64,000 nucleotides of DNA from Candidatus Mesolinea sp. (GTDB lineage: Bacteria > Chloroflexota > Anaerolineae > Anaerolineales > Anaerolineaceae). Positions 7,939-48,361 of this stretch are shown here, in pieces. The translations under genes and the position numbers were made by a program. A model generated the notes under the pieces. The model saw only the letters and a list, made by a program, of their open reading frames with translations, ran no database searches and was not told where the DNA came from. Every line of letters starts with the position of its first letter. The first letter of the stretch is position 1. The DNA lies in assembly GCA_034430095.1 (NCBI GenBank), contig DAOUFK010000002.1, forward strand, positions 7,617 to 71,616, given 5' to 3'.

Positions 7939-7979
7939 ATAACGAATAAAGCGCGGTTAACCCGCGCTTTATTCGTTAT
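7939..7979. terminator. bidirectional hairpin between convergent genes
   Basis: An 18-bp perfect stem (ataacgaataaagcgcgg / ccgcgctttattcgttat) with a 5-nt loop lies between the stops at 7928 (+) and 7992 (-). Confidence 0.6.
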
Positions 7980-7991
7980 CATTGAAGTCTC

Positions 7992-9362: not shown

Positions 9363-9449
9363 CTATAAATTTTACTACTTATGCGGAATTTATTAAACGG
9401 AAAACTAAATAGAAAAAATGAACAGGTATATCAATAAATACTTATCTAG

Positions 9450-9899: not shown

Positions 9900-9915
9900 C
9901 TCACTAGTCCATTAG

Positions 9916-10857: not shown

Positions 10858-10861
10858 TCCC

Positions 10862-11683: not shown

Positions 11684-11698
11684 TTTATCCTCTATACT

Positions 11699-12967
11699 TT
11701 ATTTTGTAATAAGCTTCAATAAGAAATACAAAGGAATACCGACCGCATTAAAATCTGTCTCCGGAAAAGCTGTACCAGATAATCCCATTTGTTCAAAAAT
11801 AGGATACATAATTGCAGGACCGATAGCAATCATAATTCCAGCGCATAATGCACCAATGATTGCGCCTTTCCATCCTCCGGTAGCATTCCCAAAGACACCT
11901 GCTGTGCCCCCTATGAAAAAGTAAGGAATTGCTACAGGAATAATAACGGGGGCTTTTAAGAGGATTAATACGAACATGGTAAGTAAACCACCAGCATAAG
12001 CAGCTAGAAATCCAATAATGACAGCTGTAGGAGCATACGGAAACACTACCGGGCAATCTAATGCAGGTACCGCATTAGGTATTACTTTTTCGGAGATACC
12101 GATGAATGCAGGCACGATCTCACCAAGGAACATGCGAACACCGGTAATAATTACATATACTGCACCTGCAAATGTTAAAGATTGCAAGAATGGGAAAAGA
12201 AGCCAATTAACTCCAGCAGAAAGCTCCTCAACGGCACCTTTTCCTGCAACTAATGCAGTTATATAAAAGAAAATGAGCATCGTGACAGAGATTGCTGATA
12301 CATAATCGCGGAAAAAAGTTAACCCTTGAGGTAGTTTTATTTTTTCAGTGCTATCCTCAGGGTTCCCAACTTTTGATCCTATCCATGAGGAAAAACTATA
12401 TGCAATTGTGCAATAATGACCGATGCCAATGTCGTCTGAGCCTGTGATTGCGTGCATGCCTTTTTTGCCTAAGAATGGAAAAATAGCTGCACCAATTCCC
12501 AGAATAATAGAACCAACTATTATTGTGATAGTATTCGACACTCCAGCGGCGCCAAAGACAACGGCCAACATCGCTGCAAAAAACAGATTGTGTTGACCTG
12601 TTAGGAAAATATACTTAAATTTAGTCAGGCGGGCAAATATCAAGTTCACAATAAAACCAAATACCATAATCAACGCTGTTGCTACACCGAAATCTTTCAT
12701 TGCTATAGCTGTAATATTTTCAGCTAATGGGGTAACACCAACAAGGTTGAATGCTTTTGAAAATAATGTTTGGAAGTTTCCCAACGCTACAACACCAGCC
12801 CCCGCACCAATGCCAAAAACGAGGAATCCAACCATTGTCTTTATAACACCCGAAGCTATCTCAGGGAACGATTTTTTTTGAATTAGTAAGCCTACTAACG
12901 CTACCAAACCCACCAAGACGGTTGCATTCCCAAGAAAATCTTTAACGAAAGTCAATAAAATATCCAT
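11699..12967 (-). CDS. PTS ascorbate-family transporter subunit IIC (UlaA/SgaT family)
   Basis: Polytopic membrane ORF of the UlaA/SgaT type. I chose the start at ATG 12967, which is preceded by AAGGAG; the ORF-track start at 12991 is a TTG. Confidence 0.85.
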   Translation of the reverse strand: MDILLTFVKDFLGNATVLVGLVALVGLLIQKKSFPEIASGVIKTMVGFLVFGIGAGAGVVALGNFQTLFSKAFNLVGVTPLAENITAIAMKDFGVATALIMVFGFIVNLIFARLTKFKYIFLTGQHNLFFAAMLAVVFGAAGVSNTITIIVGSIILGIGAAIFPFLGKKGMHAITGSDDIGIGHYCTIAYSFSSWIGSKVGNPEDSTEKIKLPQGLTFFRDYVSAISVTMLIFFYITALVAGKGAVEELSAGVNWLLFPFLQSLTFAGAVYVIITGVRMFLGEIVPAFIGISEKVIPNAVPALDCPVVFPYAPTAVIIGFLAAYAGGLLTMFVLILLKAPVIIPVAIPYFFIGGTAGVFGNATGGWKGAIIGALCAGIMIAIGPAIMYPIFEQMGLSGTAFPETDFNAVGIPLYFLLKLITK

Positions 12968-13071
12968 TTTGTTCTCCTTATGTATTAACAAATTATTTTT
13001 TAGAATAAATAAATTCTATATGTGTTCTACATAAATCCTCCTTTCATAGATATCCGCTCAGACAATTTATA

Positions 13072-13371
13072 TCAATTCTGCTTACTATTTAGTTCTTCTA
13101 ACTCTCTCAACAAACCTATTGATATCTCTGAACGACTAACTATATTTTTTATTCCTAAGACTGGTTTTCCTATTGGTTTTAAAATATCTACAAGATCCGC
13201 CATACAAACAAACAGATCAGCGTCGCTTCCTTTAGCAGAGGACACAACATCAGAAGAAATATAGAAGGGTAATCCCCCTTCCTTCACTGCTCGTTCCACT
13301 TGAACTTTTAACATGATGCTACTTCCCATACCCGTTCCACAAACAACTAATAATTTATACTTTTTATCCAT
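13072..13371 (-). CDS. PTS subunit IIB
   Basis: 99-aa ORF with the Cys phosphorylation-site context LLVVCGTGMGSS. Confidence 0.75.
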   Translation of the reverse strand: MDKKYKLLVVCGTGMGSSIMLKVQVERAVKEGGLPFYISSDVVSSAKGSDADLFVCMADLVDILKPIGKPVLGIKNIVSRSEISIGLLRELEELNSKQN

Positions 13372-13383
13372 AGAACTCCTAAT

Positions 13384-14151
13384 TTAACACAATGTGATCT
13401 TCACACCTAAGTTTTCAATTTCATGTAAGATTTCCGCATCTGCGTCTTTTGAAGTAACGATTCGTTCTGCAATTCCAATTGGTGCAACGATGCTTGTTGC
13501 AACATAGCCAATTTTAGTATGGTCTGCTGTAATAATGACACTTTTACTTGTTTTCATGATCATACGGTCCGTTTGCAGCTCTTGAGGAAAATCACTTGTT
13601 AAGCCATATTTAGGATGAACACCGCGCATACCCATTATTACTTTGTCCACATGTAAGTTTTGCAGTATTGTTTCAGAAAAATGACCATAAAATGAGTATT
13701 CATTACGCCGAAGAAATCCGCCAATTGCAATTACTGGCATTTTAGCGTTTGAGGTAAGCTCCTCGATGACAGGTAAAGCATTTGTAACAACTGTAATGTC
13801 GTCTCGATAAATTAATGCTTTAGCAACGTAGGTAGTTGTGGTTCCAGATCCTAAAAAAACCATTTCCCCTGGTCCAATAAGTTTTGCTGTTTCTTTACCT
13901 ATTCTTTGTTTTACATCTGCAAGAGTTTTCATTCGGTTATAAATGTTATTGATATTCTTCAAAGGGAGATTGGAGGTTGCATATGCACCACCATATATTT
14001 TCCGAAGATATCCTTGATTTTCAAGATCATTTAAATCTCGTCGTATCGTCATTGCGGAGACGTGGAATATATCAGCTAGCTCATTGACCTTGACATGCCC
14101 CTCTCGATCAATCTTATCAAGAATGATTGCTAATCGCTCCTCTTTGAACAT
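13384..14151 (-). CDS. DeoR-family transcriptional regulator
   Basis: The N-terminal HTH reads ERLAIILDKIDREGHVKVNELADIFHVSAMTIRRDLNDLE, followed by a DeoR C-terminal sensor domain. The start is ATG 14151. Confidence 0.85.
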   Translation of the reverse strand: MFKEERLAIILDKIDREGHVKVNELADIFHVSAMTIRRDLNDLENQGYLRKIYGGAYATSNLPLKNINNIYNRMKTLADVKQRIGKETAKLIGPGEMVFLGSGTTTTYVAKALIYRDDITVVTNALPVIEELTSNAKMPVIAIGGFLRRNEYSFYGHFSETILQNLHVDKVIMGMRGVHPKYGLTSDFPQELQTDRMIMKTSKSVIITADHTKIGYVATSIVAPIGIAERIVTSKDADAEILHEIENLGVKITLC

Positions 14152-14241
14152 AGCTCTAACATTATATAAATCAAAATGGGATAAGTCAACAAAGACACAC
14201 AACCGAACATATAAAAACAATAAACAATAATATTATTATAA

Positions 14242-25862: not shown

Positions 25863-25967
25863 GTTCGGGCGGGACCGGCACGGCGGAGCCCTGCGAACCC
25901 CGTCAGGTCCGAGAGGAAGCAGCGGTAAGGAGGTCGCTTCGGGTGTTGCCGACAAACCTGCCCGAAC
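25863..25967 (+). ncRNA. ffs: signal recognition particle RNA (small bacterial 4.5S type)
   Basis: The conserved domain IV core GTCAGGTCCGAGAGGAAGCAGC is present. A long closing helix pairs gttcgggcggg with cctgcccgaac. Confidence 0.8.
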
Positions 25968-38243: not shown

Positions 38244-38990
38244 ATGCCGCAGGTCATCCCTGAAAATTTGGAAAAAGCCGCAGAGCGCGGCGAGCCTTCA
38301 CACGTCTGGCGCGCCGGGCAGGAGCGCCGCTTTGCCATGTTGCGTGAGGCAGCTGGAGAACGCATCAATGGGCGGGTGCTCGTGGACGGCAGCGGGGTCG
38401 GGACGTATCTGCGCCATTTGGTGCCGCTGAGCCGGCAAGCCATCGGGCTGGATATCGAGTTTCCACGGGTGCAGGAGAGCCATGCCTTTGCAGAGCTGGT
38501 GGTTTGCGGAGCTGGCGAACATTTGCCCTTTCCCACTGGCAGCATAGACCTGGTCTTCAGCCACGAGGTGCTAGAGCATGTGCAGGATGACCAAGCCACG
38601 GTGCAGGAGATGGTGCGGGTGCTAAGACCAGGCGGGCGCATTGTGCTTTTTTGCCCTAACCGCGGCTATCCTTTTGAGACACATGGTATTTTTTGGCGCG
38701 GCAAATATCATTTTGGCAATATCCCGCTGGTCAACTATCTCCCCCGCCGTCTGCGGGATAAACTTACGCCGCATGTGCGGATCTATACGCGTTCGGATTT
38801 AGCGCGACTGTTTGCCGGGCTGCCGGTGCAGGTTGTGACCAAAAGAACCATCTTCGGTGCCTACGATAATATCATCGAGCGGCATCCGCGCTTGGGCAAA
38901 GCTCTGAGGGCTGTACTGCAAGCCCTGGAAAACACGCCATTGCAGCGCATGGGGCTTTCCCACTTTTGGGTGATCGAAAAGGCTGCCTGA
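38244..38990 (+). CDS. class I SAM-dependent methyltransferase
   Basis: Motif I is VLVDGSGVGTY. Post-I and motif II are FSHEVLEHVQD and LRPGGRIVL. Confidence 0.75.
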   Translation: MPQVIPENLEKAAERGEPSHVWRAGQERRFAMLREAAGERINGRVLVDGSGVGTYLRHLVPLSRQAIGLDIEFPRVQESHAFAELVVCGAGEHLPFPTGSIDLVFSHEVLEHVQDDQATVQEMVRVLRPGGRIVLFCPNRGYPFETHGIFWRGKYHFGNIPLVNYLPRRLRDKLTPHVRIYTRSDLARLFAGLPVQVVTKRTIFGAYDNIIERHPRLGKALRAVLQALENTPLQRMGLSHFWVIEKAA

Positions 38991-39073
38991 GAGAGACTTT
39001 AGTGCAGCAGGATAGGGGAAATGTTTTGAGAAAAGTACGAGCATGCACCCCTGAATAAGGTTTGGCGCAAAGC

Positions 39074-39101
39074 TTGACTTTTAGATTTTTTATTCTATAA
39101 T
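39074..39101 (+). promoter_or_regulatory. sigma70-type promoter of the first tRNA-fMet copy
   Basis: TTGACT (39074-39079), a 16-nt spacer and TATAAT (39096-39101). The -10 element ends 9 nt upstream of tRNA position 1. Confidence 0.55.
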
Positions 39102-39110
39102 ACTAACCAC

Positions 39111-39182
39111 TGCGGGGTAGAGCAGTGGCAGCTCGTCGGGCTCATAACCCGGAGGTCAGTGGTTCGAATCCACTCCCCGCTA
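39111..39182 (+). tRNA. initiator tRNA-Met (anticodon CAT), copy 1
   Basis: Cloverleaf with anticodon loop CTCATAA. Initiator hallmarks are three consecutive G:C pairs closing the anticodon stem (GGG/CCC), A11:U24, and an unpaired 1:72 position (U.U). CCA is not encoded. Confidence 0.9.
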
Positions 39183-39186
39183 CTAT

Positions 39187-39215
39187 AAACAGAGCCTTGA
39201 AAAGGCTCTGTTTTT
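39187..39215 (+). terminator. rho-independent terminator after tRNA copy 1
   Basis: Stem acagagcc / ggctctgt, a 7-nt loop, then TTTTT. Confidence 0.6.
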
Positions 39216-42200
39216 GACTAGAACGGAAATTTTGCTGAAATACACAATTTCAAATGTCAAATTTCTCTCTAATAATTTGCCGGACTCGTTGGCTATCAAA
39301 CCCATTATTTTCAGTAGTGGTGATTAAATTGTCGGCAAAACCATGTTTTTTATACCAATTTTTCTTATTCTCCCAATGTTCTCTGTATTTTTGATTTGTT
39401 AACATCCCCAAGTGTTCCCAATACCATTGTTCTCCATGAATGTTGATAGTGAAATCTGGCAAATACATTGTTCCATCAGGAGCATATAATGGCACTTCAT
39501 ACAAGAATGGTATGTTTAAATCAGCCAATATATTAGCAATTATCACTTCAGATTTGGACCTCACCATGAGGCTAGTCAATGTTCTATGGATTTTGCCTTC
39601 TTCATACCATTCGTGCATTCTGAAGAGCTCAGCCGGCGAAGGCTTGAATGTAAACAAGGAAGAATTTATTCGATTGAGGATTGACCTTTCTGGCCTGCAT
39701 AAAGAAAGCAGGGGTTGGACATCTTCTTGAATTAATAATGTGCAATGGCTCTGAGCTCGTGTGATTCCTGTGTAGAACAATTCTCGCGATAAGAGAGCCT
39801 GCTTATATTTAGGTAAAACGAAATATACTCGCTGAAACTCACTGCCTTGGGATTTATGAACAGAAATGGCATATGCTAATTCAAGATTCTCAGTAACTGA
39901 TTCTTCGTTTTCATAATTCACCCAATAGTCTGGTTTTCGACTAAAGACTACTTGGAATCTTTCTATTCGGAAATTATTCCATTTCCACTTATCATTTTTA
40001 AGATCAAAACCATGAACTCGAACCATGCCAATTTCGCCATTAAATACTTCGATCCTTTCGTTTTTCCCTGTTTTGTGACAATATGCCATAACAGGGTTTG
40101 ATTTGGGACGGTTTACTATTTGTATCACTTTATCGAAGTAAGTTATTCCCCCTAACTGACCCTTTTTATCAAGTAACCAACCGCCTTTATGACGTTGGAT
40201 AATTCGATTAATGTTCTCCGTGCCATAAAGCTCTCCACGGTAGGGTGAGATAATTTGAAGAGACTCAGGGTAATCACCATCGGCTTTCTTGAATACAGAA
40301 TTCCATAATTCATATGGTTTACCTTGATCAAATTGCTTTCCCGAATCTTCTTCTAAATCTTTCACAATTGTTTTAAGTAAAATGTCTTCGAGCTCACCTG
40401 GCGTATTCCAATAAAGAACTCTCAGATCACCGCTAACATCTCCACCTTCAATTATTTTTGTTAGCATTTGGTCTTTAATTATTTCATCCTCTTCATTTTT
40501 GCCTGTTTGCGAATCACTTCGGAGAAAAATAGAGGCTGAATCTATAATGCCAGTGCCTTTATCTGTTAATCTATTTGTGAGTTGACGCATGTTAATTTTT
40601 AATTCTCCAATGGCTTCTGGTTGTTCAGTCTGAAGCCAGTCCATCAAATCAGCAAAAACCCTGCCAGTCCCGATGGGTGGCAATTGATTAGGATCACCCA
40701 CAAAAATTAAACGTTGAACTGAATTCCAATTGATTGCTCGGAAAAGCGTTGCAAGAAGTGGTAGATCTAGCATTGACGATTCATCGATAATATAAGTTGT
40801 TATAGCCTCTTCTTTTTGTCCGCCAGTTCGTTTAAACGTTAAATTCTCATTCAACCAGCCACGCTTGGCCAAAAATGAATGAATCGTCGCTGCTTGTTCA
40901 TGTGTTCGTTCCCTTAATCGATCAGCTGCTTTCCCCGTTGGCGCTAATAATTGAAAACTAGTGCCTTCTCCATGTGCTTTCTTAATTGCATTAATAATTG
41001 CGCCAACAACTGTAGTTTTTCCAGTGCCAGCACTTCCGCTAAGAATGCTAATTGGGCGCAAGAAGGTTCCTTGGCAAACCTTTATTTGTTGCGCGATAGC
41101 ATCTTCATATTCTTCTGGATGCGATTCAGAGAGCGGGCTTTTAGGGTCAAATAAGAAAAGATGCCAATTGCTGTCTGTCATTGGAAATTTGAGTTTAATA
41201 TTTTGCCTTTGGGCAAGGTCCCTGAGCACACTCTCAATATCACGCTCATCATCGAAAATTTGCTTCAAATACAGATAAAGCTGATTTGATTCATACCTGA
41301 ATTTCAATGCTTTGCTAATTTCATTTTTGTCGATCTCTAGATATCGGAGATTGAAATGAGCTTTTTTCCATTCGGGCAAATAACCGAGTTTGTGATTGAT
41401 GCTTTCTAGAATTGAATCTGCTAACAAAAAAGTGTGTTGATCTTGGTGTCGCAACTGTTCTACACAAAGAGCCCGTAGACGCTGCCAACTTTCAGGTTCT
41501 ACGAGTGTTGCTTTACCTAAATCTGGAGAGGGGAGCATTCCATGATCAATTTGGTTAAACGTTATTTGGTCATCTACATCTAAACCTATATATTGTTCAT
41601 ATAATATATAAGGGTTCTGCGATATTTCTTCTGGAGCCGATAGAATACAAACATTTCCAGGTTGGTCGATAATTCGTGAAATTTGATCAGTGCGCAAATC
41701 AAAACGTGGCAAGGTTTCACTGATTAACATTTGCTGATTAGGTTCTAATAATTGCCATTTCTTTCTGACTGAAGAAATACGCTGAGCTGATATGGTCATA
41801 TCGGGAATCGTACTGATCTCCCCACTCAGGAATGAAAACAGCAAATCTGTAACCTTTTGCTCACCAAGAATGGGGATCTGTTTGGTGGCATACTCTATTC
41901 CTTCAGAGAACTTTAAATAATCTAAAACTCGCAATAAACCAGGATATAAACCACGACTTTGCCAAAGTTCTGCCATAAGTGAACTCAACCAAGTTAACCT
42001 CAATGGCCAATTCTCATGGTTATCACCAATTTCTATAAGAACGCCAACAATTTCAGCCATTTGTTCAATGAGTGCGAGCGCACCATCATCGGTTATGTGC
42101 CGACTAGCATATTTAAATGCACGGGGGTTTTCCGGAACAAAAAGAATACGTTCTAGAACTTTCGGCTGATCCATATATGCATAATATGGGATTCTCAGAC

Positions 42201-43267
42201 CTTCCGTAGGATAGTTTGAAGTGATATTTCGCATCCACACATTTGGTCCGTAGCGTCGCTCCATTTCTTCAGATTGATCCGTCCAGGTAATTTCTTCACC
42301 AATAGATTTGATACGAGACATACCTATGATTACGTATTTTTGCTGCTCGTTCTCGCTGAACGGATTACTGTAATTTGCATAATAGAAAATTAAGCTCTTC
42401 GAAGGCGTGATTTTTGAGAAATATTCATTAACAGCTGTCCTCCGTTTTATTGGGTCATATTTCGGATATTTCGTTTCAGTATTAAGCACTTCTTCTTTAT
42501 ATACTTCTTCATAGGGCCATGTGCAGATGGTGTAGGGCGGTATAGTCCATGTGCGAGGGCTTGTATTATCTGTGAACCATTTTGGAGGCGGCATTTGTGC
42601 TGGTATTGGAAACGGGCTAAAAGCATTGACGCTGGCTAGACAAGGGATATAAAAATTGCTCAGTTCATTAACAGGCTTACCTGCAATTGGCTCCTCTAAC
42701 TGCAAATTGCGCCTTTCAGCAATTAAATCACCAGGAAAAGAAAAAAGCCCAGTGCAATAGGTGTTTTCCTTAGGATTACGGCAAACACAACCGTTCCATC
42801 CATAATCATGCCAAGCCATCCTTGCCGAAATGTGAATGGTCATATTTCCTCCAAATCTTTGCTTCTCGTATCATTAGTTAGGATGCTGTTCTAGACATTG
42901 ACCCTATTACAAAATTTCTACTTTTTTAGTAATTGAAATATATCACTAAATTGTTATTAAATATCTATATTATTTCGCAGTATTACTGCCTTATCAATAT
43001 TAATGATTAATCGAGATAACGGAATTACATGGAAGATAAACCCTAGCATTAATAAATTATGCCACCTTGTTACCAAAAGCGGAATGATTGAGGGCGGATA
43101 AAATTTCTAAGATATTTAGTTTTAGAAGTATCCATTTTCTACTTTTTACTGCCAATTGTTAATCAATTATAGCATAGACGTACTCACAACAACTTTTTAA
43201 GGATCTGTAATAAATCCTACTGATTACAATACTTTAAAAACCTGATCAATGGTTTGCTGTTTAAGGG
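39196..43267. mobile_element. AT-rich 4.07-kb insert between two identical tRNA-fMet genes (integrase-less genomic islet)
   Basis: It is bounded by perfect 88-bp direct repeats (39108-39195 and 43268-43355). The composition is visibly AT-rich compared with the flanks. The content is one gene plus a 424-bp leader. Confidence 0.55.
39250..42843 (-). CDS. 1197-aa multidomain protein: unknown N-terminal region (~590 aa) + RecD-like SF1 helicase core + C-terminal PD-(D/E)xK-like nuclease module
   Basis: The start is preceded by a GGAGG SD. Helicase motifs are Walker A SGSAGTGKTT (aa 602-611), Walker B YIIDESSM (684-691), GDPNQLPPIG (716-725), AISVHKSQGSEF (992-1003) and FYTGITRAQ (1023-1031). The C-terminal tail reads SKSEVIIANILxxLxIPFxYE...PDF...EHLG (aa 1096-1146). 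Confidence 0.85.
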   Translation of the reverse strand: MTIHISARMAWHDYGWNGCVCRNPKENTYCTGLFSFPGDLIAERRNLQLEEPIAGKPVNELSNFYIPCLASVNAFSPFPIPAQMPPPKWFTDNTSPRTWTIPPYTICTWPYEEVYKEEVLNTETKYPKYDPIKRRTAVNEYFSKITPSKSLIFYYANYSNPFSENEQQKYVIIGMSRIKSIGEEITWTDQSEEMERRYGPNVWMRNITSNYPTEGLRIPYYAYMDQPKVLERILFVPENPRAFKYASRHITDDGALALIEQMAEIVGVLIEIGDNHENWPLRLTWLSSLMAELWQSRGLYPGLLRVLDYLKFSEGIEYATKQIPILGEQKVTDLLFSFLSGEISTIPDMTISAQRISSVRKKWQLLEPNQQMLISETLPRFDLRTDQISRIIDQPGNVCILSAPEEISQNPYILYEQYIGLDVDDQITFNQIDHGMLPSPDLGKATLVEPESWQRLRALCVEQLRHQDQHTFLLADSILESINHKLGYLPEWKKAHFNLRYLEIDKNEISKALKFRYESNQLYLYLKQIFDDERDIESVLRDLAQRQNIKLKFPMTDSNWHLFLFDPKSPLSESHPEEYEDAIAQQIKVCQGTFLRPISILSGSAGTGKTTVVGAIINAIKKAHGEGTSFQLLAPTGKAADRLRERTHEQAATIHSFLAKRGWLNENLTFKRTGGQKEEAITTYIIDESSMLDLPLLATLFRAINWNSVQRLIFVGDPNQLPPIGTGRVFADLMDWLQTEQPEAIGELKINMRQLTNRLTDKGTGIIDSASIFLRSDSQTGKNEEDEIIKDQMLTKIIEGGDVSGDLRVLYWNTPGELEDILLKTIVKDLEEDSGKQFDQGKPYELWNSVFKKADGDYPESLQIISPYRGELYGTENINRIIQRHKGGWLLDKKGQLGGITYFDKVIQIVNRPKSNPVMAYCHKTGKNERIEVFNGEIGMVRVHGFDLKNDKWKWNNFRIERFQVVFSRKPDYWVNYENEESVTENLELAYAISVHKSQGSEFQRVYFVLPKYKQALLSRELFYTGITRAQSHCTLLIQEDVQPLLSLCRPERSILNRINSSLFTFKPSPAELFRMHEWYEEGKIHRTLTSLMVRSKSEVIIANILADLNIPFLYEVPLYAPDGTMYLPDFTINIHGEQWYWEHLGMLTNQKYREHWENKKNWYKKHGFADNLITTTENNGFDSQRVRQIIREKFDI

Positions 43268-43270
43268 CAC

Positions 43271-43342
43271 TGCGGGGTAGAGCAGTGGCAGCTCGTCGGG
43301 CTCATAACCCGGAGGTCAGTGGTTCGAATCCACTCCCCGCTA
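43271..43342 (+). tRNA. initiator tRNA-Met (anticodon CAT), copy 2
   Basis: This copy is identical over all 72 nt to copy 1. No consensus promoter is visible in the AT-rich sequence upstream. Confidence 0.9.
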
Positions 43343-43350
43343 CTATAAAC

Positions 43351-43375
43351 AGAGCTTGAAAAAGCTCTTTTTTTG
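43351..43375 (+). terminator. rho-independent terminator after tRNA copy 2
   Basis: Stem agagctt / aagctct, a 4-nt loop, then a T7 run. It is a diverged version of the copy-1 terminator. Confidence 0.5.
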
Positions 43376-43535
43376 ATTTCAGCGCCAATTAACAGGCTGG
43401 CGGCGGAAAGCAAGTTAAAAATAGCCCTGTTAATATTAGTGATCCACATTATAATATACGTAAAATAATCTCTTGGTAAATTGTTTCCTTAATGAAATTA
43501 TTTACAAAACACCCTCTCCTATTATGGTTTAAAGG

Positions 43536-45122
43536 ATGAATATGATAACGAATAAATCTGAGCTCTATGATGTAGTCATCATTGGAGGGGGAATTTCCGG
43601 CCTCACCGCTGCTGCGTTCTTGAGCAATGGAGGAGCAAAAGTGCTAGTTTGCGAACAGGCAGATCACGTAGGTGGACTATTCAACTCATTCTGGCAATCA
43701 GGCTACTCATTCGATGGTGGTATAAAAGCAGTCGAGAACAGCTCGGTAATGATGCCCATGCTTGCTCAGCTTGGCTTGTTGGAGCAAATTCATTTTCAAA
43801 CCAGCCCTATAGCGCTTGTCACTGGCGGCCAGGTACAGGTTATTCATCAATTCAGTGATGTGGAAGCCTACTTAGGCATGCTGGAAGGATTTTTCCCGTC
43901 CGAACAAGCCGGCCTGAAGCAAATCCTACAGGACCTGAAGACTATATATGATCTGATGGATGGCTTTCTCACCTTCCCTATCCCATTTTTCGATCAGTCT
44001 GGAGCTGGGAATAAAGCGCAGGCCGACTGGTTCAAACAGCACACAGCTCTACTCACGCGCTTACCGCGTGCCGCCGTCCTTATGCGTCAAGTCCTGCGAC
44101 CTTACTTGCAGCAGCATCTCAGTAACCCCAGTCTAATCAATCTCATGAGCGATCTCTTTCCGGACGGTACCAGCCTCTTTTTCGGTTTAGGATATTTCCG
44201 CATGTTTTTGGACTATTACTATCCCGAGGGAGGCATTCAGGTTATTCCACGCGTTCTAGCGGATGCGATACAGAAGTGGGGCGGGGAAATAAGGCTGAAT
44301 GCGCGCGTGGAGCAGGTACTTTTTAACGGAAAGCAAGCCAATGGCGTGCGATTGAGTGAAGGAGAAGAAATCCATGCAGGATTTATCATCGCCGCGAGCG
44401 ACCTGCGCCAGGCGCTCACCCGCCTAGTACCGGAGGAAATGCTGCCCAAAAAGTTTGTGCGCAAGCTGCACGCCGCCGAAGTTTCACATTCTGTGTTTAA
44501 CGTCTACTTGGGCCTTGACGTACCCGTTGAGAGCCTGAACTTTCACGGCTGTTCGCATGTTTTCTACCACCCGGATTTGGATGGAATCAGTGAGGAAGAC
44601 CGCCTTACACGCGAGGATTATTTTGCCCATGTTCCGCAGGAGATATCCATTCCCTGCCAGCATGACTCTCAACTGGCGCCTCCCGGCAAAACGGGAATTA
44701 ATATCAGCGCGATGACCTCCTGGAAATATAATGGCGGTTGGGAGAGGGAGCCGGCGGAATATGAACGGATAAAGGAATCCTATACACAGAAAATGATTGC
44801 CAGCCTGGAGAAGTTTATTCCCCATCTCAGTGAGCATATCGAAGTATGCTTTGCAGCCACGCCGCGCACTATCGCCATGCAAACCTCTAATACCCAAGGT
44901 GCAATTATGGGCTGGTCTTTTCATCGCGAACAGACTTTTACGCGGGGGAACTTCCTTCAAATGCGTTCGAGCGTCAAAACACCCATTCCCAGACTTTTGG
45001 CAGCTGGTCATTGGGCTTATTCCCCGGGCGGCTCGCCTGTAGCTGTTTTGACTGGAAAACTAGCTGCCGAAGCTATCTTGCATGATAAGACAAGTTCGGA
45101 GGCCTATGATGAGACTGACTGA
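43536..45122 (+). CDS. phytoene-desaturase-family (CrtI-like) FAD-dependent oxidoreductase
   Basis: N-terminal dinucleotide-binding motif DVVIIGGGISGLTAAAFL and a C-terminal GHWAYSPGGSPVA-type motif. Confidence 0.8.
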   Translation: MNMITNKSELYDVVIIGGGISGLTAAAFLSNGGAKVLVCEQADHVGGLFNSFWQSGYSFDGGIKAVENSSVMMPMLAQLGLLEQIHFQTSPIALVTGGQVQVIHQFSDVEAYLGMLEGFFPSEQAGLKQILQDLKTIYDLMDGFLTFPIPFFDQSGAGNKAQADWFKQHTALLTRLPRAAVLMRQVLRPYLQQHLSNPSLINLMSDLFPDGTSLFFGLGYFRMFLDYYYPEGGIQVIPRVLADAIQKWGGEIRLNARVEQVLFNGKQANGVRLSEGEEIHAGFIIAASDLRQALTRLVPEEMLPKKFVRKLHAAEVSHSVFNVYLGLDVPVESLNFHGCSHVFYHPDLDGISEEDRLTREDYFAHVPQEISIPCQHDSQLAPPGKTGINISAMTSWKYNGGWEREPAEYERIKESYTQKMIASLEKFIPHLSEHIEVCFAATPRTIAMQTSNTQGAIMGWSFHREQTFTRGNFLQMRSSVKTPIPRLLAAGHWAYSPGGSPVAVLTGKLAAEAILHDKTSSEAYDETD

Positions 45123-47523
45123 GGATTTGGTCTTGCGGGATCACTATGATGTGATTGTGATTGGTGCTGGCTTGGGCGGCATGACAGCCGCCAGCCTACT
45201 GGCAAAGCGAGGTCTATATGTTTTGATGATCGAACAACAAGGCAAGCCTGGCGGTGCGTGTTCTTCATTCAAACGTGAAGACCACGTCCATGATGTTGGC
45301 GCAGCTATGCTGTATGGCTTCGGTGAAAAAGGATTTAGACCCTTTCACTTCTTACTCAACGAACTTGAGGAACCGATTGACATCATCCCTCACGCCACAT
45401 TAGCACGGATGAGTTTTGAGGGTCGAGAAATTATCTTCTGGCCGGATTTGCAACGGTTCATTGACGAACTGACCGAGATATTTCCAGATGAAAAAGAGGG
45501 GTTGCGGGCATTTTATGCTGATCTCTACAAGATGTACGAAAACATCGTCATCAAGAACCAGGTGATTGTTCCGCCCTCGGAATATTCAGCTCGCCAAGGC
45601 TTGCGCAGATTGCTCAGTGACCCATTTTCGATCTTTAAAATGCAAAAGCTGCTCTCTACTAGCACCATGGAACTACTCAAGAAGTATTTTCATACTCCTG
45701 AGCTATTTAATTTCTACGATAAACTGTGCTCCGCCTATGCCTATACCACTGCCGAAGAGACCCCGGCTGTTCTGGCAGCAACAATGTTTATTGATAACCA
45801 CGTTGGGGGTGTTTATTATCCAGCTGGTGGCGCACAAATGCTGCCCAATACACTGGAAAAAGCTTTCGAGCGCGATGGTGGACAAGTGATCTACCACCAA
45901 CTTGTCGATGAAATCCTTATCCAAAATGGGCACGCTTATGGGGTGAGGCTGCAAAATGGGATCGAGATCCTTGCCGACCGGGTGATTGCTAATACCACAG
46001 TCTGGAATATCTACGGGCGTCTGGTGCGCGCCGAACACATTGATCCTAAGCGGCTCGACTGGGCACGCTCCTTAATCCCCACGTTCCCAAGTATGACCCT
46101 TTATATGGTAATTGACCGCCAGGGTATTCCAGAAAATTATTATCCGTGGGAAATCTTTATTGAAAATCGAAAGGTCATCGACTCATCCGACCTGACGCTT
46201 TATATCAATTCGTTGGTAGATACTACGCTTTGTCCTCCAGACGAGCTGAACGTGATGGCGATTGCCCCGAATTTACGTCCTTGGCCGCACTCCAATGACC
46301 CGGCTTACCATTCAAAAGACTACGAGGTACAGAAACAGCAAGAAGCGGAGCGTATGATCGATCAGATCGAACAGCACATTCCCGGCTTCCGGCAGCACAT
46401 CCGTTCTGTCATTATTGGGACACCGACCACGATTGAAAGATACTTGCTTAAGAATGGTGGCGCAGTAGGGGGGCCTAAAAATCAAATTGGGCAGGAAATG
46501 TTGAAGCGCTTGCATGCCCGCAGTGAATGGAAGAACCTCTACTTTTGCGGGGACTCAACTGTCATGGGCACTGGTGCACCTGCAACGGTTGTCTCAGGTG
46601 TTGGAGCAGCGAATGTCATCCTGCGCGAGCTGCACAAACCTGAATTTGAAGCCCATCCTATTTCCAAACAATACATCCATTTCGTTGATACTCCTTACCG
46701 CCGGTCTGAATACCTTCCAGGCACACCAGTCTCGCAGGAAAATGCCTTTCTGGCTGCCGCAAAATGCCAGGGCTGCGAAGAACCAGAATGCGTCAAAGGC
46801 TGCCCAGCTGGCATTGATATCCCTGGTTTTTTGCGCCGGATGGAAGCGAAGAATTATATCGGTGCAGCCAGGTTGATTCGCGAGAAAAATCCCTTTGGCG
46901 AGACGTGTGGTTTTACCTGCGCAGCAGAGAAACTTTGCCAGCAAAATTGTTACCGCAAGGACTTTACGGGAAAGCCAGTCAACATCGCTGAACTTCAAAG
47001 CTGGGTATGTCAGGAGGCTGGAGAGGATGGTTGGGCTCAGCGCGAACCTGTTGACAAGGATCACACCATCGCAGTTATCGGTTGCGGACCATCAGCCATG
47101 AGCTGTGCGTACTATCTGACCCTGGCTGGGTGCCGAGTGACCATCTTTGCCAAGGAAAGCCGACCAGGAGGCAAGCTTCTTGAAAAAGCAATGGCAAATC
47201 CCAGGCTTCAGGCAGCACTCCAACGGGATATTGAGGGGGTCCTTGCTAGCGGCGTCACGTTTTTGGGCAATCGTGAACCCCTACAAGAGACGGACCTGGA
47301 GCAGATGTGTAAACAATATTCTTGTGTGTATATCACCAAGAATCAGCTTTCAGGTCCGCAGGATCCAGAAGCTTCGGTTCCGTTTTCGGATCCTGTTGCG
47401 CAATTAACGGGGCTCTTCATTGGCGAGGAGTTTCTAATAAATGGGGTGAGTGTGGTCGAGGCTGTTGCCATTGGCCGCCGGGCAGCTCTGGAGATCTGCA
47501 AGTATTTAAACCTCTCAGCGTGA
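45106..47523 (+). CDS. CrtI-like FAD oxidoreductase fused to a GltD-like [4Fe-4S]/NAD(P)H-binding module
   Basis: The N-terminal part has DVIVIGAGLGGMTAASLL and the CrtI-family C-terminal motif YFCGDSTVMGTGAPA. The following ~280 aa have CQGCEEPECVKGCPAGIDIP, a second Cys cluster and a second Rossmann motif, IAVIGCGPSAMSCAYYL. The start ATG 45106 overlaps the upstream stop. Confidence 0.75.
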   Translation: MMRLTEDLVLRDHYDVIVIGAGLGGMTAASLLAKRGLYVLMIEQQGKPGGACSSFKREDHVHDVGAAMLYGFGEKGFRPFHFLLNELEEPIDIIPHATLARMSFEGREIIFWPDLQRFIDELTEIFPDEKEGLRAFYADLYKMYENIVIKNQVIVPPSEYSARQGLRRLLSDPFSIFKMQKLLSTSTMELLKKYFHTPELFNFYDKLCSAYAYTTAEETPAVLAATMFIDNHVGGVYYPAGGAQMLPNTLEKAFERDGGQVIYHQLVDEILIQNGHAYGVRLQNGIEILADRVIANTTVWNIYGRLVRAEHIDPKRLDWARSLIPTFPSMTLYMVIDRQGIPENYYPWEIFIENRKVIDSSDLTLYINSLVDTTLCPPDELNVMAIAPNLRPWPHSNDPAYHSKDYEVQKQQEAERMIDQIEQHIPGFRQHIRSVIIGTPTTIERYLLKNGGAVGGPKNQIGQEMLKRLHARSEWKNLYFCGDSTVMGTGAPATVVSGVGAANVILRELHKPEFEAHPISKQYIHFVDTPYRRSEYLPGTPVSQENAFLAAAKCQGCEEPECVKGCPAGIDIPGFLRRMEAKNYIGAARLIREKNPFGETCGFTCAAEKLCQQNCYRKDFTGKPVNIAELQSWVCQEAGEDGWAQREPVDKDHTIAVIGCGPSAMSCAYYLTLAGCRVTIFAKESRPGGKLLEKAMANPRLQAALQRDIEGVLASGVTFLGNREPLQETDLEQMCKQYSCVYITKNQLSGPQDPEASVPFSDPVAQLTGLFIGEEFLINGVSVVEAVAIGRRAALEICKYLNLSA

Positions 47524-47647
47524 GCGAAGGCAGCCGGCAAGTATGCTCAGCCGATCTGGTCAGGCTAAAAAACTAAGCTAGGTAGAACCTTCTAGCTGAA
47601 ATATTGGTTCTGTTTACGCTATACTCCAGTTATAAAGGAGATAAAAT

Positions 47648-48361
47648 ATGGCAATTCAAAACAAAGTTACAGTTATTTCTGGCGCTACGGGCGGACTAGG
47701 CAGGGTGGTAGCGCGGGAGTTTGCAGCGCAAGGCGCAAAGTTGGTTTTGGTGAGCCACAACGCAGAGCACCTGGCGCAGCTCGAAACTGAACTTAATCTT
47801 TCCCCTGAGAATTTCCTCAGCATTGTGGCTGACCTCACACAAAGGGATTCCGCACAGAAGATCCTCGATGCCGCTGTGGCAAAGTTTGGCAGGGTGGATA
47901 TTCTGTTCAACTTCATTGGCGGCTGGATCGCCGGTAAGCCTGTCTCAGACGTCGCGCCTGAGGAGGTCGAGAACATGCTCGCTCAGCACTTTTGGACGAG
48001 CTTCAACTTGGCTCAAGCCTTTGTCCCACATATGCTGGAGAACCACTGGGGGCGCTACGTGGTCATTTCGACGCCTGGCGTGGGCACTCCACCAGCCAAC
48101 AGCCTGCCTTATACCGTTGGCAAAGCTGCCGAGGAGACGCTGATGCTGACGCTTGCGGAAGAGCTTAAACACACAGGTGTGACAGCCAACATCCTGCGGG
48201 TGCGCAGCATCGACGTGGAGCACAAGCGTGAGCGCGAGCCCTCTCCCAAGAATGCTGCCTGGACTACACCGGAAGAAATCGCGGCCGCCTTGCTCTACCT
48301 CTGCTCAGATGAGGCGAATAGAGTAAACGGTGCCCGTATTCCCCTCTATGGCGCGCAGTAA
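47648..48361 (+). CDS. SDR-family oxidoreductase
   Basis: Cofactor motif SGATGGLGRVVA and catalytic YTVGK. Confidence 0.85.
   Translation: MAIQNKVTVISGATGGLGRVVAREFAAQGAKLVLVSHNAEHLAQLETELNLSPENFLSIVADLTQRDSAQKILDAAVAKFGRVDILFNFIGGWIAGKPVSDVAPEEVENMLAQHFWTSFNLAQAFVPHMLENHWGRYVVISTPGVGTPPANSLPYTVGKAAEETLMLTLAEELKHTGVTANILRVRSIDVEHKREREPSPKNAAWTTPEEIAAALLYLCSDEANRVNGARIPLYGAQ

What the first reader, a model, noticed from the sequence alone, without database searches (positions are those of the whole stretch)
39108..43355. One-gene AT-rich islet bracketed by two perfect copies of the whole initiator tRNA-Met gene, with no integrase
Seen in the sequence:
- 88 bp at 39108-39195 recur without a mismatch at 43268-43355. 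Each copy holds the complete 72-nt tRNA-Met(CAT), 3 nt of 5' flank and 13 nt of 3' flank.
- Related but diverged terminator hairpins follow both copies.
- Only copy 1 has a near-consensus promoter (TTGACT-16-TATAAT).
- The 4,072 bp in between are strikingly AT-rich compared with both flanks. They contain a single 1197-aa gene on the opposite strand plus a 424-bp leader.

Established knowledge: tRNA genes are classical island integration sites. Normally only a 3' tRNA fragment is duplicated, and a tyrosine integrase sits at one end.

Inference: neither of those is true here. This may be a minimal cargo-only islet. It could be mobilised in trans, or gained and lost by homologous recombination between the two tRNA copies. 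Its cargo has the architecture of a defence gene.
Basis: partly seen in the sequence, partly recalled or inferred. Interest (0 to 1): 0.9.

Follow-up and report, generated by a model that had tools for sequence, protein, structure and literature searches.

The report
Integrase-less defence islet between tRNA-fMet copies
A 4.16-kb piece of foreign DNA carrying one candidate anti-phage gene and its own full copy of the initiator tRNA gene has recently spread between strains of an uncultured Anaerolineae-like bacterium. It always lands in the initiator tRNA gene and carries no integrase, which makes it a clean natural test case for how single defence genes move.

Summary
Two perfect 88-bp copies (39108-39195 and 43268-43355), each holding a whole tRNA-Met(CAT) with initiator features, bracket 4,072 bp at GC 0.38. 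Flanks are at 0.49-0.55. The only gene is a 1197-aa protein that matches the PADLOC candidate defence family PDC-S68 end to end. It has a RecD-like helicase core and a probable C-terminal PD-(D/E)XK nuclease.

Close relatives carry a single tRNA-fMet here, so empty sites exist. Other relatives carry different, mostly defence, cargo at the same tRNA. Most of those are bounded by a classical 3' tRNA fragment starting at the anticodon loop, and some sit next to truncated tyrosine-integrase genes.

The same islet, 99.3-100% identical and again bracketed by two full tRNAs, occurs in other strains whose flanks are 84-98% identical or unrelated. The junctions show that the islet carries its own tRNA copy and entered by reciprocal recombination inside the host tRNA gene.

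It is therefore a discrete, recently mobile, integrase-less islet in a tRNA-linked defence hotspot. Whether homologous recombination or an integrase acting in trans moves it is unresolved. I rate it a new variant of a known kind, of moderate interest.

The parts
38244..38990 (+). Conserved left flank: class-I SAM methyltransferase (248 aa). It was used as the anchor to fetch related loci.
   Evidence: ORF. Pfam Methyltransf_23/11/25. 86-97% nt identity in relatives L015-L029.
39074..39101 (+). Promoter of tRNA copy 1 (TTGACT-16-TATAAT). It is conserved in all relatives, occupied or empty.
   Evidence: 11 of 12 matches. Identical in L015-L029 and L112-L118.
39108..39195 (+). Repeat copy 1 (88 bp): CAC + tRNA-fMet + 13 nt.
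39111..39183 (+). tRNA-Met(CAT) copy 1, initiator type, with a promoter; this is the functional copy. In occupied sites its 3' flank belongs to the islet.
   Evidence: Junction comparison.
39187..39213 (+). Terminator hairpin of 'type A' that travels with the islet. It forms the islet's left end.
   Evidence: Fold -16.5 kcal/mol, z = -5.6. The same sequence follows copy 1 in L112-L118, whatever lies to the right of copy 2.
39250..42843 (-). Cargo gene: 1197-aa PDC-S68 family protein, a candidate anti-phage helicase-nuclease.
   Evidence: PADLOC PDLC05066, 1696 bits, residues 1-1193 against profile 1-1199 of 1202. Between islet copies, 19 of 25 nt differences are synonymous.
41164..42843 (-). 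N-terminal region of about 560 aa with no known family. It has invariant H4, R8, W11, H12, W16, C21, C30 and C68. Presumed sensor or regulatory part.
   Evidence: No Pfam hit. No PDB profile hit. Invariant columns. AF2 pLDDT is mostly 75-88.
39724..41091 (-). RecD-like SF1B helicase core (aa 585-1040). Walker A is GSAGTGKT at 603-610 and Walker B is DE at 687-688.
   Evidence: Pfam AAA_19, AAA_30, UvrD_C_2. TIGR RecD2 and RecD. PDB RecD, RecD2 and Dda by sequence and by fold, E = 1e-24. The motifs are invariant in 35 homologues.
39253..39591 (-). C-terminal domain (aa about 1085-1197) with an alpha-beta-beta-beta-alpha-beta restriction-endonuclease-like fold. E1099, D1130, E1143, H1144 and K1160 are invariant. 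Probable PD-(D/E)XK nuclease.
   Evidence: AF2 domain model with pLDDT 84-95 over these residues. Foldseek hits are weak (E = 3e-3 to 8e-2) but uniformly PD-(D/E)XK nucleases: R2 RLE, DrdV, Bax1, Hjc, PvuRts1I, Can2, TnsA. There is no sequence-level hit.
42844..43267 (.). AT-rich 424-bp leader, which forms the islet's right end. It holds a candidate promoter for the cargo gene on the minus strand (42997-42969, TTGATA-17-AATAAT). It has no promoter-like site facing tRNA copy 2 and no credible ORF.
   Evidence: It is not shared with 68-82% homologues of the gene. It is shared at 99.3% with L112-L118.
43268..43355 (+). Repeat copy 2 (88 bp).
43271..43343 (+). tRNA-Met(CAT) copy 2, without a promoter. 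Its 5' flank (…aagggCAC) belongs to the islet and its 3' flank belongs to the recipient genome. In other strains this copy is decaying.
   Evidence: L113 copy 2 has 2 substitutions. L110 and L111 copy 2 have acceptor-stem mutations.
43351..43368 (+). Resident terminator hairpin (type A) in front of the oxidoreductase module. Its homology to the islet's own terminator explains the 13-nt 3' extension of the perfect repeat in this strain.
   Evidence: Orthologous flank in L016.
43536..47523 (+). Older accessory module: two CrtI-like FAD oxidoreductase genes (528 and 813 aa). It is present in L016 and absent from L017, L015, L025, L027, L028 and L112-L117.
47619..48361 (+). Right conserved boundary of the hotspot. 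Homology to all relatives resumes at 47619-47636, followed by the short-chain dehydrogenase gene at 47648-48361.

Best explanation
What it is. The islet is a 4,160-bp horizontally mobile unit with no integrase. It consists of one full-length, promoter-less tRNA-fMet gene with its own terminator, the PDC-S68 defence gene on the opposite strand, and that gene's 424-bp promoter region.

How it got there (shown by junction comparison). It entered the chromosome by one reciprocal crossover inside the host's initiator tRNA gene. That leaves two complete tRNA genes:
- Copy 1 = host promoter + tRNA + the islet's terminator.
- Copy 2 = the islet's 5' flank + tRNA + the host's original 3' flank.

The reverse crossover between the two copies would remove the islet without a scar.

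Which recombination system (inferred). The step I consider most likely is general, RecA-type homologous recombination. The tRNA gene is the longest stretch that is identical across diverged hosts, so it would serve as a portable landing pad. This could act on a circle formed by recombination between the two copies in a donor, or on linear DNA taken up from a donor. Conditional on the islet being mobile, I give roughly 45% to homologous recombination and 35% to a tRNA-fMet-specific tyrosine integrase supplied in trans.

What the cargo does (inferred from domains). The protein most likely protects the cell by ATP-driven translocation or unwinding on invading DNA, coupled to cleavage by its C-terminal PD-(D/E)XK-like domain.

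Context. The site as a whole is a tRNA-fMet-linked defence hotspot in a population of Anaerolineae-like bacteria from digester and sludge metagenomes.
For: Empty and alternative states of the site:
- All 16 close relatives fetched through the flanking methyltransferase have one tRNA-fMet.
- In L017 the tRNA is followed after 213 bp by the equivalent of window 47636.
- Other relatives carry a REase-ARP nuclease, a DitA-like protein, SoFic, PDC-S62, BREX + GmrSD + PDC-S31, or a thiolase pair at the same tRNA. All these inserts have GC 0.39-0.45.

The islet moves as a unit:
- L112-L118 hold the same islet with two full tRNAs.
- The islet differs from the window's by 27-29 of 4081 nt, while the adjacent flank is 83.8% identical (92.3% over 3.2 kb).
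- L112 and L117 have 0 of 4081 differences in the islet but 18 of 1100 in the flank.
- In those strains copy 2 is followed by the L017-type flank rather than the oxidoreductase genes. In L115-L118 the left flank is an IS-like gene rather than the methyltransferase.

The islet carries its own tRNA:
- Copy 1's 3' flank and copy 2's 5' flank stay with the islet, while copy 2's 3' flank changes with the background.
- A version of the islet about 86% identical to the window's (L110, L111) has element-specific mutations in the 5' half of copy 2 (TGCAAGG). Those mutations are joined to two different 3' halves in two backgrounds that are 99.93% identical across the islet. This places the crossover between tRNA nt 6 and 44.

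No integrase.

Points favouring homologous recombination:
- The repeat covers the 5' half of the tRNA, which an integrase-type att site does not need.
- Integrase-made islets at the same tRNA (L015, L016, L025, L027, L028, L120) duplicate only from the anticodon loop to the 3' end.
- The leader shares nothing with their conserved 'arm'.

The cargo is functional and defence-like:
- Full-length PDC-S68 match.
- Invariant helicase motifs.
- RecD2-like fold.
- Nuclease-like C-terminal fold.
- 19 of 25 substitutions between islet copies are synonymous.
- Homologues P0004 and P0005 lie among restriction-modification, SNF2/PLD, Mrr and NERD-UvrD genes.
Against: - No circle junction, excision product or exact pre-insertion site (tRNA-terminator-oxidoreductase) was recovered. 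L016 shows that background only with a different islet in place.
- About 76 bp of homology is short for efficient RecA recombination, yet the islet reached at least four backgrounds with almost no divergence.
- A tyrosine-integrase family clearly works at this tRNA's anticodon loop. Copies with intact catalytic C-termini (HxxR…Y) exist in metagenomes as P0174 and P0180.
- Every mappable crossover (L110, L111) includes the anticodon loop. The data therefore cannot separate the two mechanisms.
- In three element lineages the 5' edge of the borrowed tRNA lies 2-4 nt upstream of the gene. That points to shared ancestry or a defined boundary, which simple homology capture does not predict.
- PDC-S68 has no experimental support. 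No paper in the library mentions it.
Confidence: 0.5

Rival explanations
1. The islet is a cis/trans-mobilisable element, similar to a CIME. The two tRNA copies act as attL and attR for a tRNA-fMet-specific tyrosine integrase encoded elsewhere, either in the genome or on a co-resident element. That integrase cuts in the anticodon loop and excises or integrates the 4.16-kb circle.
For: - Other islets at the same tRNA end in a 3' tRNA fragment that starts exactly at the anticodon loop.
- Truncated integrase genes lie directly 3' of the tRNA in L021-24 and L120. L120 is a complete 8.1-kb attL-int-cargo-attR island.
- Homologues with intact catalytic ends exist.
- This integrase has a SAM-like core-binding N-terminus, as simple Xer-type recombinases do, so arm sites may not be required.
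- Mappable crossovers include the anticodon loop.
- Near-identical copies in several backgrounds argue for an efficient mechanism.
Against: - No integrase of this family is present in the 64-kb window or within 10 kb on either side.
- The integrase copies examined next to a tRNA-fMet or a fragment of it (L021-24, L119, L120) are truncated or frameshifted, and no homologue found exceeds 269 aa.
- Integrase-made islets here duplicate only the 3' 43 nt and share a conserved arm. This islet lacks the arm.
- Identity through the 5' half of the tRNA has no role in this model.
Confidence: 0.3
2. The islet is not itself mobile. It is what remains of a larger integrase-bearing island, and it spreads only as a passenger when large chromosome segments are exchanged between related strains by recombination in conserved flanking genes. 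This is ordinary hotspot turnover.
For: - The site is a hotspot with conserved flanks and decayed integrases.
- Such turnover without recognisable mobility genes is described for E. coli and P. aeruginosa defence hotspots (PMC10121019).
- The dehydrogenase gene next to the hotspot is unusually diverged, as expected where flanks recombine.
Against: - Identity drops from 99.3-100% to 84-98%, or to nothing, within a few nt of the tRNA ends on both sides.
- The islet sits in front of two different right-hand neighbours, the oxidoreductase module and the dehydrogenase flank. Its breakpoint is inside or at the tRNA, not in flanking genes.
- There is no integrase remnant or attR 'arm' inside the 4,072 bp.
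Confidence: 0.12
3. The two tRNA genes are an ancestral tandem duplication into which the gene was inserted. Alternatively, the second copy is a long target-site duplication made on insertion, or the arrangement is an assembly artefact.
For: Many bacteria have tandem initiator tRNA genes (general knowledge). The two copies are identical.
Against: - All relatives without the islet have one copy.
- Copy 2's 5' half carries element-specific mutations that travel with the islet, and it is joined to different 3' halves. This excludes a target-site duplication.
- The arrangement is assembled independently in at least seven samples by different assemblers, including contigs that span both copies.
Confidence: 0.03

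Closest known systems
Classical tRNA-integrated genomic islands made by tyrosine integrases, anticodon-loop sublocation (Williams 2002, from my own knowledge; the paper is listed as reference 26 of PMC10121019)
   Same: Both target a tRNA gene, are bounded by direct repeats, have low GC, vary between strains and restore an intact tRNA. Relatives at this very site show the classical form: a full tRNA, cargo, then a 3' fragment starting at the anticodon loop, with integrase remnants.
   Different: This islet has no integrase. Its repeat is the whole tRNA gene, 5' half included, rather than the part 3' of the crossover. It lacks the arm sequence shared by the classical islets here.
CIMEs, cis-mobilisable elements (definition in ICEberg 2.0, PMC6323972)
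   Same: Both are flanked by recombination sites and have lost or lack genes for integration and transfer. Both are thought to hitch-hike on another element's machinery.
   Different: CIMEs derive from ICEs or IMEs and are mobilised by an ICE that integrates next to them. Here no ICE or IME relative is seen, the unit is a single gene, and the 'sites' are full tRNA genes that could work through homology alone.
tRNA-linked islands of Prochlorococcus built by tycheposons (bioRxiv 10.1101/2020.12.28.424599)
   Same: Both involve islands next to full-length tRNA genes, successive integrations that push older material inward, scattered partial tRNAs, fragmented integrases, and defence or niche cargo.
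   Different: Tycheposons encode their own integrase and usually replication genes, and they leave partial tRNAs. This islet encodes neither and leaves a complete tRNA.
Chromosomal defence hotspots with no identifiable mobility genes: E. coli hotspot #37 and the P. aeruginosa core defence hotspots (PMC10121019; PMC10250203)
   Same: Both have conserved flanks, highly variable defence cargo between strains and often no recognisable mobile element. 18 E. coli hotspots are at tRNA loci.
   Different: Here the unit has sharp, repeat-defined ends. It can also be shown to have moved intact between backgrounds, which suggests a concrete mechanism.
IMEX elements that exploit host XerCD at dif, such as CTX phage and the gonococcal genetic island (from my own knowledge)
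   Same: Both are integrative elements without their own recombinase that rely on host recombination functions and a short chromosomal site.
   Different: The target is dif rather than a tRNA gene, and the recombinase is XerCD. Nothing here was tested for Xer involvement.
Helicase-nuclease single-gene defence proteins: PADLOC PDC-S68 (candidate), typeIV_RecD, Nhi, AbiO
   Same: It is a full-length PDC-S68 match, with partial matches of the helicase core to typeIV_RecD, RecD_like, Nhi and AbiO. The architecture is an SF1 helicase plus a nuclease-like domain.
   Different: PDC-S68 is only a computational candidate. The roughly 560-aa N-terminal region has no known relatives, and the nuclease assignment rests on weak fold matches.

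Membership tests
Bacterial initiator tRNA (tRNA-fMet) | CAU anticodon | tested here: met
   ARAGORN gives anticodon cat for both copies.
Bacterial initiator tRNA (tRNA-fMet) | Three consecutive G:C pairs at the bottom of the anticodon stem (G29-31:C39-41) | tested here: met
   Read from the sequence TCGGG-CTCATAA-CCCGG. The criterion comes from established knowledge of initiator identity.
Bacterial initiator tRNA (tRNA-fMet) | No Watson-Crick pair at 1:72, and A11:U24 in the D stem | tested here: met
   Position 1 = U and position 72 = U (mismatch; E. coli has C1xA72). Position 11 = A and position 24 = U. Read.
Classical tRNA-integrated island with tyrosine integrase | Integrase gene inside the element | tested here: not met
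   The only ORF is PDC-S68. No Phage_integrase within 10 kb on either side. No relative of the local integrase family in the 64 kb.
Classical tRNA-integrated island with tyrosine integrase | Direct repeats limited to the tRNA segment from the crossover to the 3' end | tested here: not met
   The repeat covers the whole gene plus 3 nt upstream. Neighbouring islets at the same site do meet this criterion.
Classical tRNA-integrated island with tyrosine integrase | Strain-variable presence with an intact empty site, and atypical composition | tested here: met
   Empty sites L017 and L057. GC 0.38 against 0.49-0.55, tetranucleotide z = 3.0.
CIME (cis-mobilisable element) | Lacks integration and transfer genes but keeps both flanking recombination sites | tested here: inconclusive
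   The lack of such genes is met. Both copies contain the anticodon stem-loop used as the crossover site by related islands. Whether they function as att sites is unknown.
CIME (cis-mobilisable element) | Derived from, and mobilised by, a related ICE or IME | not testable with these tools
   No ICE or IME relative was seen in the window or in related loci. Testing would need complete genomes or experiments.
PADLOC PDC-S68 (candidate defence system) | Full-length match to the family profile | tested here: met
   PDLC05066, E = 0, 1696 bits, residues 1-1193 against 1-1199 of 1202. Two sister profiles score 765 and 647 bits.
PADLOC PDC-S68 (candidate defence system) | Demonstrated anti-phage activity | not testable with these tools
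   No paper in the library mentions PDC-S68. The 'PDC' label marks an untested candidate (my own knowledge).
PADLOC PDC-S68 (candidate defence system) | Lies among defence genes | tested here: met
   Homologues P0004 and P0005 lie beside SNF2/PLD, Mrr_N, NERD-UvrD and MmeI-like restriction-modification genes. The window's site holds defence genes in other strains.
SF1B RecD-like helicase | Walker A and B motifs, helicase motifs and two RecA-like domains with a RecD2-like fold | tested here: met
   AAA_19, AAA_30, UvrD_C_2. RecD2 and RecD TIGRFAMs score below their cut-offs, so this is not an orthologue. GTGKT and DE are invariant. Foldseek matches RecD and RecD2 at E = 1e-24, TM (target-normalised) 0.64-0.70.
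PD-(D/E)XK nuclease (C-terminal domain) | Alpha-beta-beta-beta-alpha-beta core with conserved acidic residues and Lys | tested here: inconclusive
   The secondary-structure order and invariant E1099, D1130, E1143 and K1160 fit. Foldseek hits are all nucleases of this fold but weak, E >= 3e-3. There is no sequence-profile hit. The canonical ExK reads EH.

The most novel reading that the evidence does not exclude
A class of recombinase-free 'tRNA cassette' elements exists. Each consists of a single defence gene plus a promoter-less full-length initiator tRNA gene. That tRNA gene acts purely as a portable homology patch. The cassette can therefore be inserted into, and cleanly lost from, the initiator tRNA gene of any host that shares the tRNA sequence, using only the cell's general recombination system. 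This would give a concrete mechanism for the turnover of defence genes in hotspots that show no mobility genes.
Probability: 0.3. Interest if true: 0.7.

Novelty: new variant of a known kind. Interest (0 to 1): 0.5.

Why it matters
Many defence genes sit in chromosomal hotspots where no mobility gene can be found, and how they get in and out is an open question. This islet is a minimal natural example with sharp ends and an identified empty site. The same tRNA holds several alternative cargoes, and near-identical copies of the islet occur in different genetic backgrounds.

It therefore turns the question into an experiment: does a 76-nt tRNA gene suffice as a landing pad for RecA, or is a hidden integrase needed? 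It also offers a compact, well-conserved member of the untested PDC-S68 family for functional work. Finally, it documents a tRNA-fMet defence hotspot in Chloroflexota, a phylum in which such biology is hardly described.

Tried and rejected
Approaches that led nowhere:
- Homologues of the cargo gene at 68-82% aa identity (P0002, P0004, P0005) are not next to any tRNA. They share only the coding sequence with the window. tRNA-fMet linkage is therefore a property of this islet lineage and not of the gene family.
- Relatives of the downstream oxidoreductase in reference genomes are not near a tRNA.
- An exact look-up of the oxidoreductase protein returned only the source contig, so the exact pre-insertion site was not found.
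- Viral contigs contain neither the attR arm-plus-fragment nor the islet's leader-tRNA junction. They hold only two distant full-length homologues. There is no sign of a phage or satellite carrier.
- Plasmid and phage collections hold only 43-49% identical homologues, annotated 'AAA family ATPase'.
- Rfam finds nothing in the window beyond the tRNAs and SRP RNA, and nothing in the conserved arm.
- The N-terminal 345-580 aa gives no Pfam hit and no PDB profile hit. The C-terminal domain gives no sequence-level hit.

Ideas considered and rejected:
- Long target-site duplication: rejected on the L110 and L111 hybrids.
- Group I intron in the anticodon loop: rejected, because copy 1 is complete and the fragments start at C32, not at an exon boundary.
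- L111 as proof of co-transfer of the promoter, which would favour homologous recombination: rejected as ambiguous. Its GC 0.35 right flank could equally be another island integrated earlier in the same host, and the contig ends 43 nt upstream of copy 1.
- The approximately 4.1-kb Logan contigs as evidence for circles: rejected. 4,132 = 4,072 + 2 x 30, which is what a k = 31 assembly break at the repeat produces.

Full report
**1.

The 88-bp repeat is exact at 39108-39195 and 43268-43355 and continues imperfectly to 97 nt. ARAGORN and Rfam both call a complete tRNA-Met(CAT) in each copy.

Read directly from the sequence, the tRNA has the marks of a bacterial initiator. These are three G:C pairs closing the anticodon stem, A11:U24, an unpaired 1:72 position (U.U) and A73.

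Both copies are followed by related hairpin terminators of -16.5 and -9.0 kcal/mol. Only copy 1 has a strong promoter, TTGACT-16-TATAAT at 39074-39101.

The 4,072 bp between the copies have GC 0.38, against 0.55 on the left and 0.49 on the right. GC3 of the gene is 0.33, against 0.64-0.65 in the conserved neighbours. The interval is the second most atypical 4-kb tetranucleotide window of the 64 kb.

The interval holds one gene, at 39250-42843 on the minus strand (1197 aa), and a 424-bp leader with no credible ORF.

No integrase lies in the islet or within 10 kb on either side. tblastn with the integrase family found at this tRNA in other genomes finds nothing in the window.

The window comes from a 180-kb JGI metagenome contig. 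Its relatives are labelled Anaerolineae or Chloroflexota.

**2. The cargo**

The protein matches the PADLOC candidate defence family PDC-S68 over its whole length, at 1696 bits.

Residues 585-1040 are a RecD-like SF1B helicase. The evidence is Pfam AAA_19, AAA_30 and UvrD_C_2, sub-threshold RecD2 and RecD TIGRFAM hits, and PDB RecD, RecD2 and Dda by sequence. A full-length AlphaFold model (pLDDT 78.6) matches RecD and RecD2 at E = 1e-24. Walker A and B are invariant in 35 homologues.

The last 110 or so residues model confidently as alpha-beta-beta-beta-alpha-beta. Their Foldseek matches are weak but are all PD-(D/E)XK nucleases: R2 endonuclease, DrdV, Bax1, Hjc, PvuRts1I, Can2 and TnsA. E1099, D1130, E1143 and K1160 are invariant. 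I treat the nuclease assignment as probable, not shown.

The first 560 or so residues have no known relatives.

Between islet copies, 19 of 25 coding differences are synonymous, so the gene is under selection.

Homologues are common in metagenomes and occur on plasmids of other phyla. More distant homologues sit in multi-gene defence islands. No paper in the library mentions PDC-S68, so the defence role is a candidate only.

**3. The site in relatives**

I used the methyltransferase just upstream (38244-38990) to fetch 80 metagenome loci. Sixteen of them are close relatives, at 84-97% nt identity. Every one of these has a single tRNA-fMet behind the same promoter.

What follows the tRNA differs from strain to strain:
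- L017 is empty. After the tRNA come 213 bp and then the equivalent of window 47636 onward.
- Relative to L017, the whole stretch 39185-47635 of the window is therefore accessory. That includes the two oxidoreductase genes at 43536-47523.
- Other strains carry a REase-ARP nuclease (L016, L027, L028), a DitA-like DUF5677 protein (L025), PDC-S62 (L020) or a thiolase/DUF35 pair (L015).
- L021-24 carry a truncated integrase followed by PDC-S31, BREX genes and a GmrSD-type enzyme.
- L057 has a SoFic gene inserted upstream of the tRNA promoter.
- All these inserts have GC 0.39-0.45.

This is a tRNA-linked, mostly defensive hotspot of the kind described in E. coli and Prochlorococcus.

**4. Classical att structure next door**

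In L015, L016, L025, L027 and L028 the insert ends in a 3' tRNA fragment that starts exactly at the anticodon loop. The fragment is preceded by a conserved non-coding arm of 60-280 nt that is shared by islets with different cargo.

L120, in another genome, is a complete 8.1-kb island. It runs tRNA-fMet, integrase (truncated at 242 aa), cargo, then a 3' fragment starting at the anticodon loop.

Close homologues of this integrase are all 269 aa or shorter. Many are frameshifted, but two fragments, P0174 and P0180, keep the catalytic HxxR…Y end.

A tyrosine-integrase family therefore does target this tRNA's anticodon loop, and it leaves the usual partial repeat.

**5. The window's islet is a different thing, and it moves**

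Members of the cargo protein's 90% cluster led to loci L110-L118.

L112-L118 contain the same DNA from 39054 to 43344 at 99.3% identity, again with two full tRNA genes. The islet differs from the window's by 27-29 of 4081 nt. It is identical among L112, L115, L116 and L117.

In these strains copy 2 is followed by the L017-type flank and the dehydrogenase gene, not by the oxidoreductases. That flank is only 83.8% identical to the window over its first 900 nt, and 92.3% over 3.2 kb.

L117 differs from L112 at 18 of 1100 flank positions although the islets are identical. L115-L118 also have an IS-like gene instead of the methyltransferase on the left.

The islet is thus far younger than the genomes it sits in, and it has entered at least two kinds of pre-existing site.

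**6. How it was inserted**

Comparing junctions gives three results:
- The terminator after copy 1 always goes with the islet.
- The sequence in front of copy 2 (…aagggCAC) always goes with the islet.
- The sequence after copy 2 is whatever the recipient had after its single tRNA.

This is the outcome of one reciprocal crossover between a host tRNA gene and an element that carries a full tRNA gene. The element has the order leader - CAC - tRNA - terminator - cargo and is 4,160 bp as a circle.

In the window, the recipient's own terminator happened to be related to the islet's terminator. That is why the perfect repeat is 88 bp here and about 78 bp elsewhere.

A version about 86% identical to the window's (L110, L111) gives a direct test:
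- Its copy 2 has element-specific acceptor-stem mutations (TGCAAGG) in both loci.
- These mutations are joined to two different 3' halves. One carries a 24-nt T-arm insertion. The other has a different T stem and an encoded CCA.
- Copy 1 is canonical in both loci.
- The two loci are 99.93% identical across the islet.

This excludes a target-site duplication or an ancestral tandem pair. It places the crossover between tRNA nt 6 and 44.

Copy 2 has no promoter and decays with time: two substitutions in L113 and the mutations in L110 and L111. The perfect copy 2 in the window therefore fits a recent arrival.

**7. Which recombination system**

This is not settled.

For general homologous recombination:
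- There is no integrase nearby.
- The repeat includes the 5' half of the tRNA, which an att site does not need. Integrase-made islets at this very site do not have it.
- The conserved arm is absent.
- The tRNA gene is the longest stretch identical across these diverged hosts.

For an integrase acting in trans:
- Such an enzyme family demonstrably works here.
- Catalytically intact fragments exist.
- The islet has spread with almost no divergence.
- Every mappable crossover includes the anticodon loop.

L111 at first looked like co-transfer of the promoter into a GC 0.35 genome. It is equally explained by an older AT-rich island lying to its right, so I do not use it.

I put about 45% on homologous recombination, 35% on trans mobilisation (CIME-like), and about 12% on passive hotspot turnover. 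The rest goes to other explanations.

**8. Comparison and novelty**

The general picture is known. A tRNA-linked hotspot with variable defence cargo, partial tRNA repeats and decayed integrases has been described before.

What is unusual is a single-gene unit with no recombinase whose boundary repeats are complete tRNA genes. It carries its own tRNA copy and can be shown to have moved intact between backgrounds. L110 contains a second cargo, a PLD-like gene set, bracketed in the same way.

I found no description of such elements in the searches I ran. Those searches were limited.

I file it as a new variant of a known kind. The structure is real and its reading was right, but the setting is ordinary and the key mechanistic claim is untested. 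My interest score is 0.5.

Noticed in passing
L016 8364-8430; L025 from 5835; L027 from 3459; L028 from 12843; L110 (reverse complement) 4186-4290 and 9607-9700: Pseudo-tRNA copies to the right of several islets share a conserved insertion of about 24 nt in the T arm (GGTTC|CCTGGACTGACCGTCAGGGCAGG|CGAATCC). With the preceding GGTCAGT it forms an inverted repeat, GGTCAGT-N10-ACTGACC. It occurs with different cargo and in different flanks, so it is either old or spread by gene conversion. Its meaning is unknown.
   Followed up: partly
L016 8096-8363; L025 5567-5834; L027 3191-3458; L028 12575-12842; L015 3230-3287: A conserved non-coding 'arm' of about 280 nt (60 nt in L015) lies directly upstream of the 3' tRNA fragment. 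It is shared by islets with different cargo genes. It is probably an attP-derived arm or a resident remnant. It has no Rfam match and is absent from the window.
   Followed up: partly
window 43536-47523: The two CrtI-like FAD oxidoreductase genes (528 and 813 aa, the second fused to Fer4_20/NAD-binding domains) are accessory too. They are present in L016 and absent from most relatives. They are preceded by the same type of terminator as the islets but have no tRNA remnant at their right end.
   Followed up: partly
L057 566-2410; L116 6230-6552: The 5' side of the tRNA promoter also varies. One strain has a SoFic defence gene (PADLOC 352 bits) between the methyltransferase and the promoter. Another has an IS-like HTH transposase N-terminus there.
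   Followed up: partly
L021 2570-12373 (also L022-L024): A larger island lies at the same tRNA. It holds a truncated tyrosine integrase (154 aa), PDC-S31, BrxA, PglZ, PglX and a HEC-05 GmrSD-type enzyme.
   Followed up: partly
L111 (reverse complement) 4300-13775: The 86%-type islet, 99.93% identical to the one in L110, lies next to 9.5 kb at GC 0.35 (Mur ligase, PMT_2, LNT, epimerase). Its copy 2 has a different tRNA-fMet 3' half with an encoded CCA. This is either a different low-GC host or an older AT-rich island. The contig ends 43 nt upstream of copy 1.
   Followed up: partly
window 9916-14220: This is a second compositionally atypical AT-rich block (GC 0.39, tetranucleotide z = 3.2). It encodes a split transketolase, a PTS EIIC (GAT family) permease and a DeoR regulator. 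It is probably another acquired, metabolic islet.
   Followed up: partly
window 47648-48361: The short-chain dehydrogenase gene bordering the hotspot is much more diverged between strains (77-84% nt) than the DNA further right (92-93%). This is expected if hotspot flanks recombine with distant alleles.
   Followed up: no
L016 6470-6500 versus 8432-8460: The two terminator hairpins in L016 have the same stem but reverse-complementary loops (ttgaaaaa versus tttttcaa), as if the hairpin had been flipped.
   Followed up: no
P0051, P0058, P0059, P0071; L105 13646 versus L107 6998: Some PDC-S68 homologues are 1367-1388 aa long and carry an extra PF04326 domain. In another homologue's locus, strains diverge 55 nt after the stop codon, and three contigs end about 180 bp after the gene. 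This hints at a repeat or a variable junction there as well.
   Followed up: no
window 39108-39110 relative to the promoter at 39074-39101: The 5' edge of the duplicated block (CAC) lies 7-9 nt after the -10 box, about where transcription of the tRNA should start. In two other element lineages the edge is at -2 and -4. The borrowed tRNA unit thus runs roughly from transcription start to terminator. The reason is unknown.
   Followed up: no
window 25867-25966 and 5770-5843: Bacterial small SRP RNA (56 bits) and a tRNA-Glu(CTC) gene. Both are ordinary.
   Followed up: no
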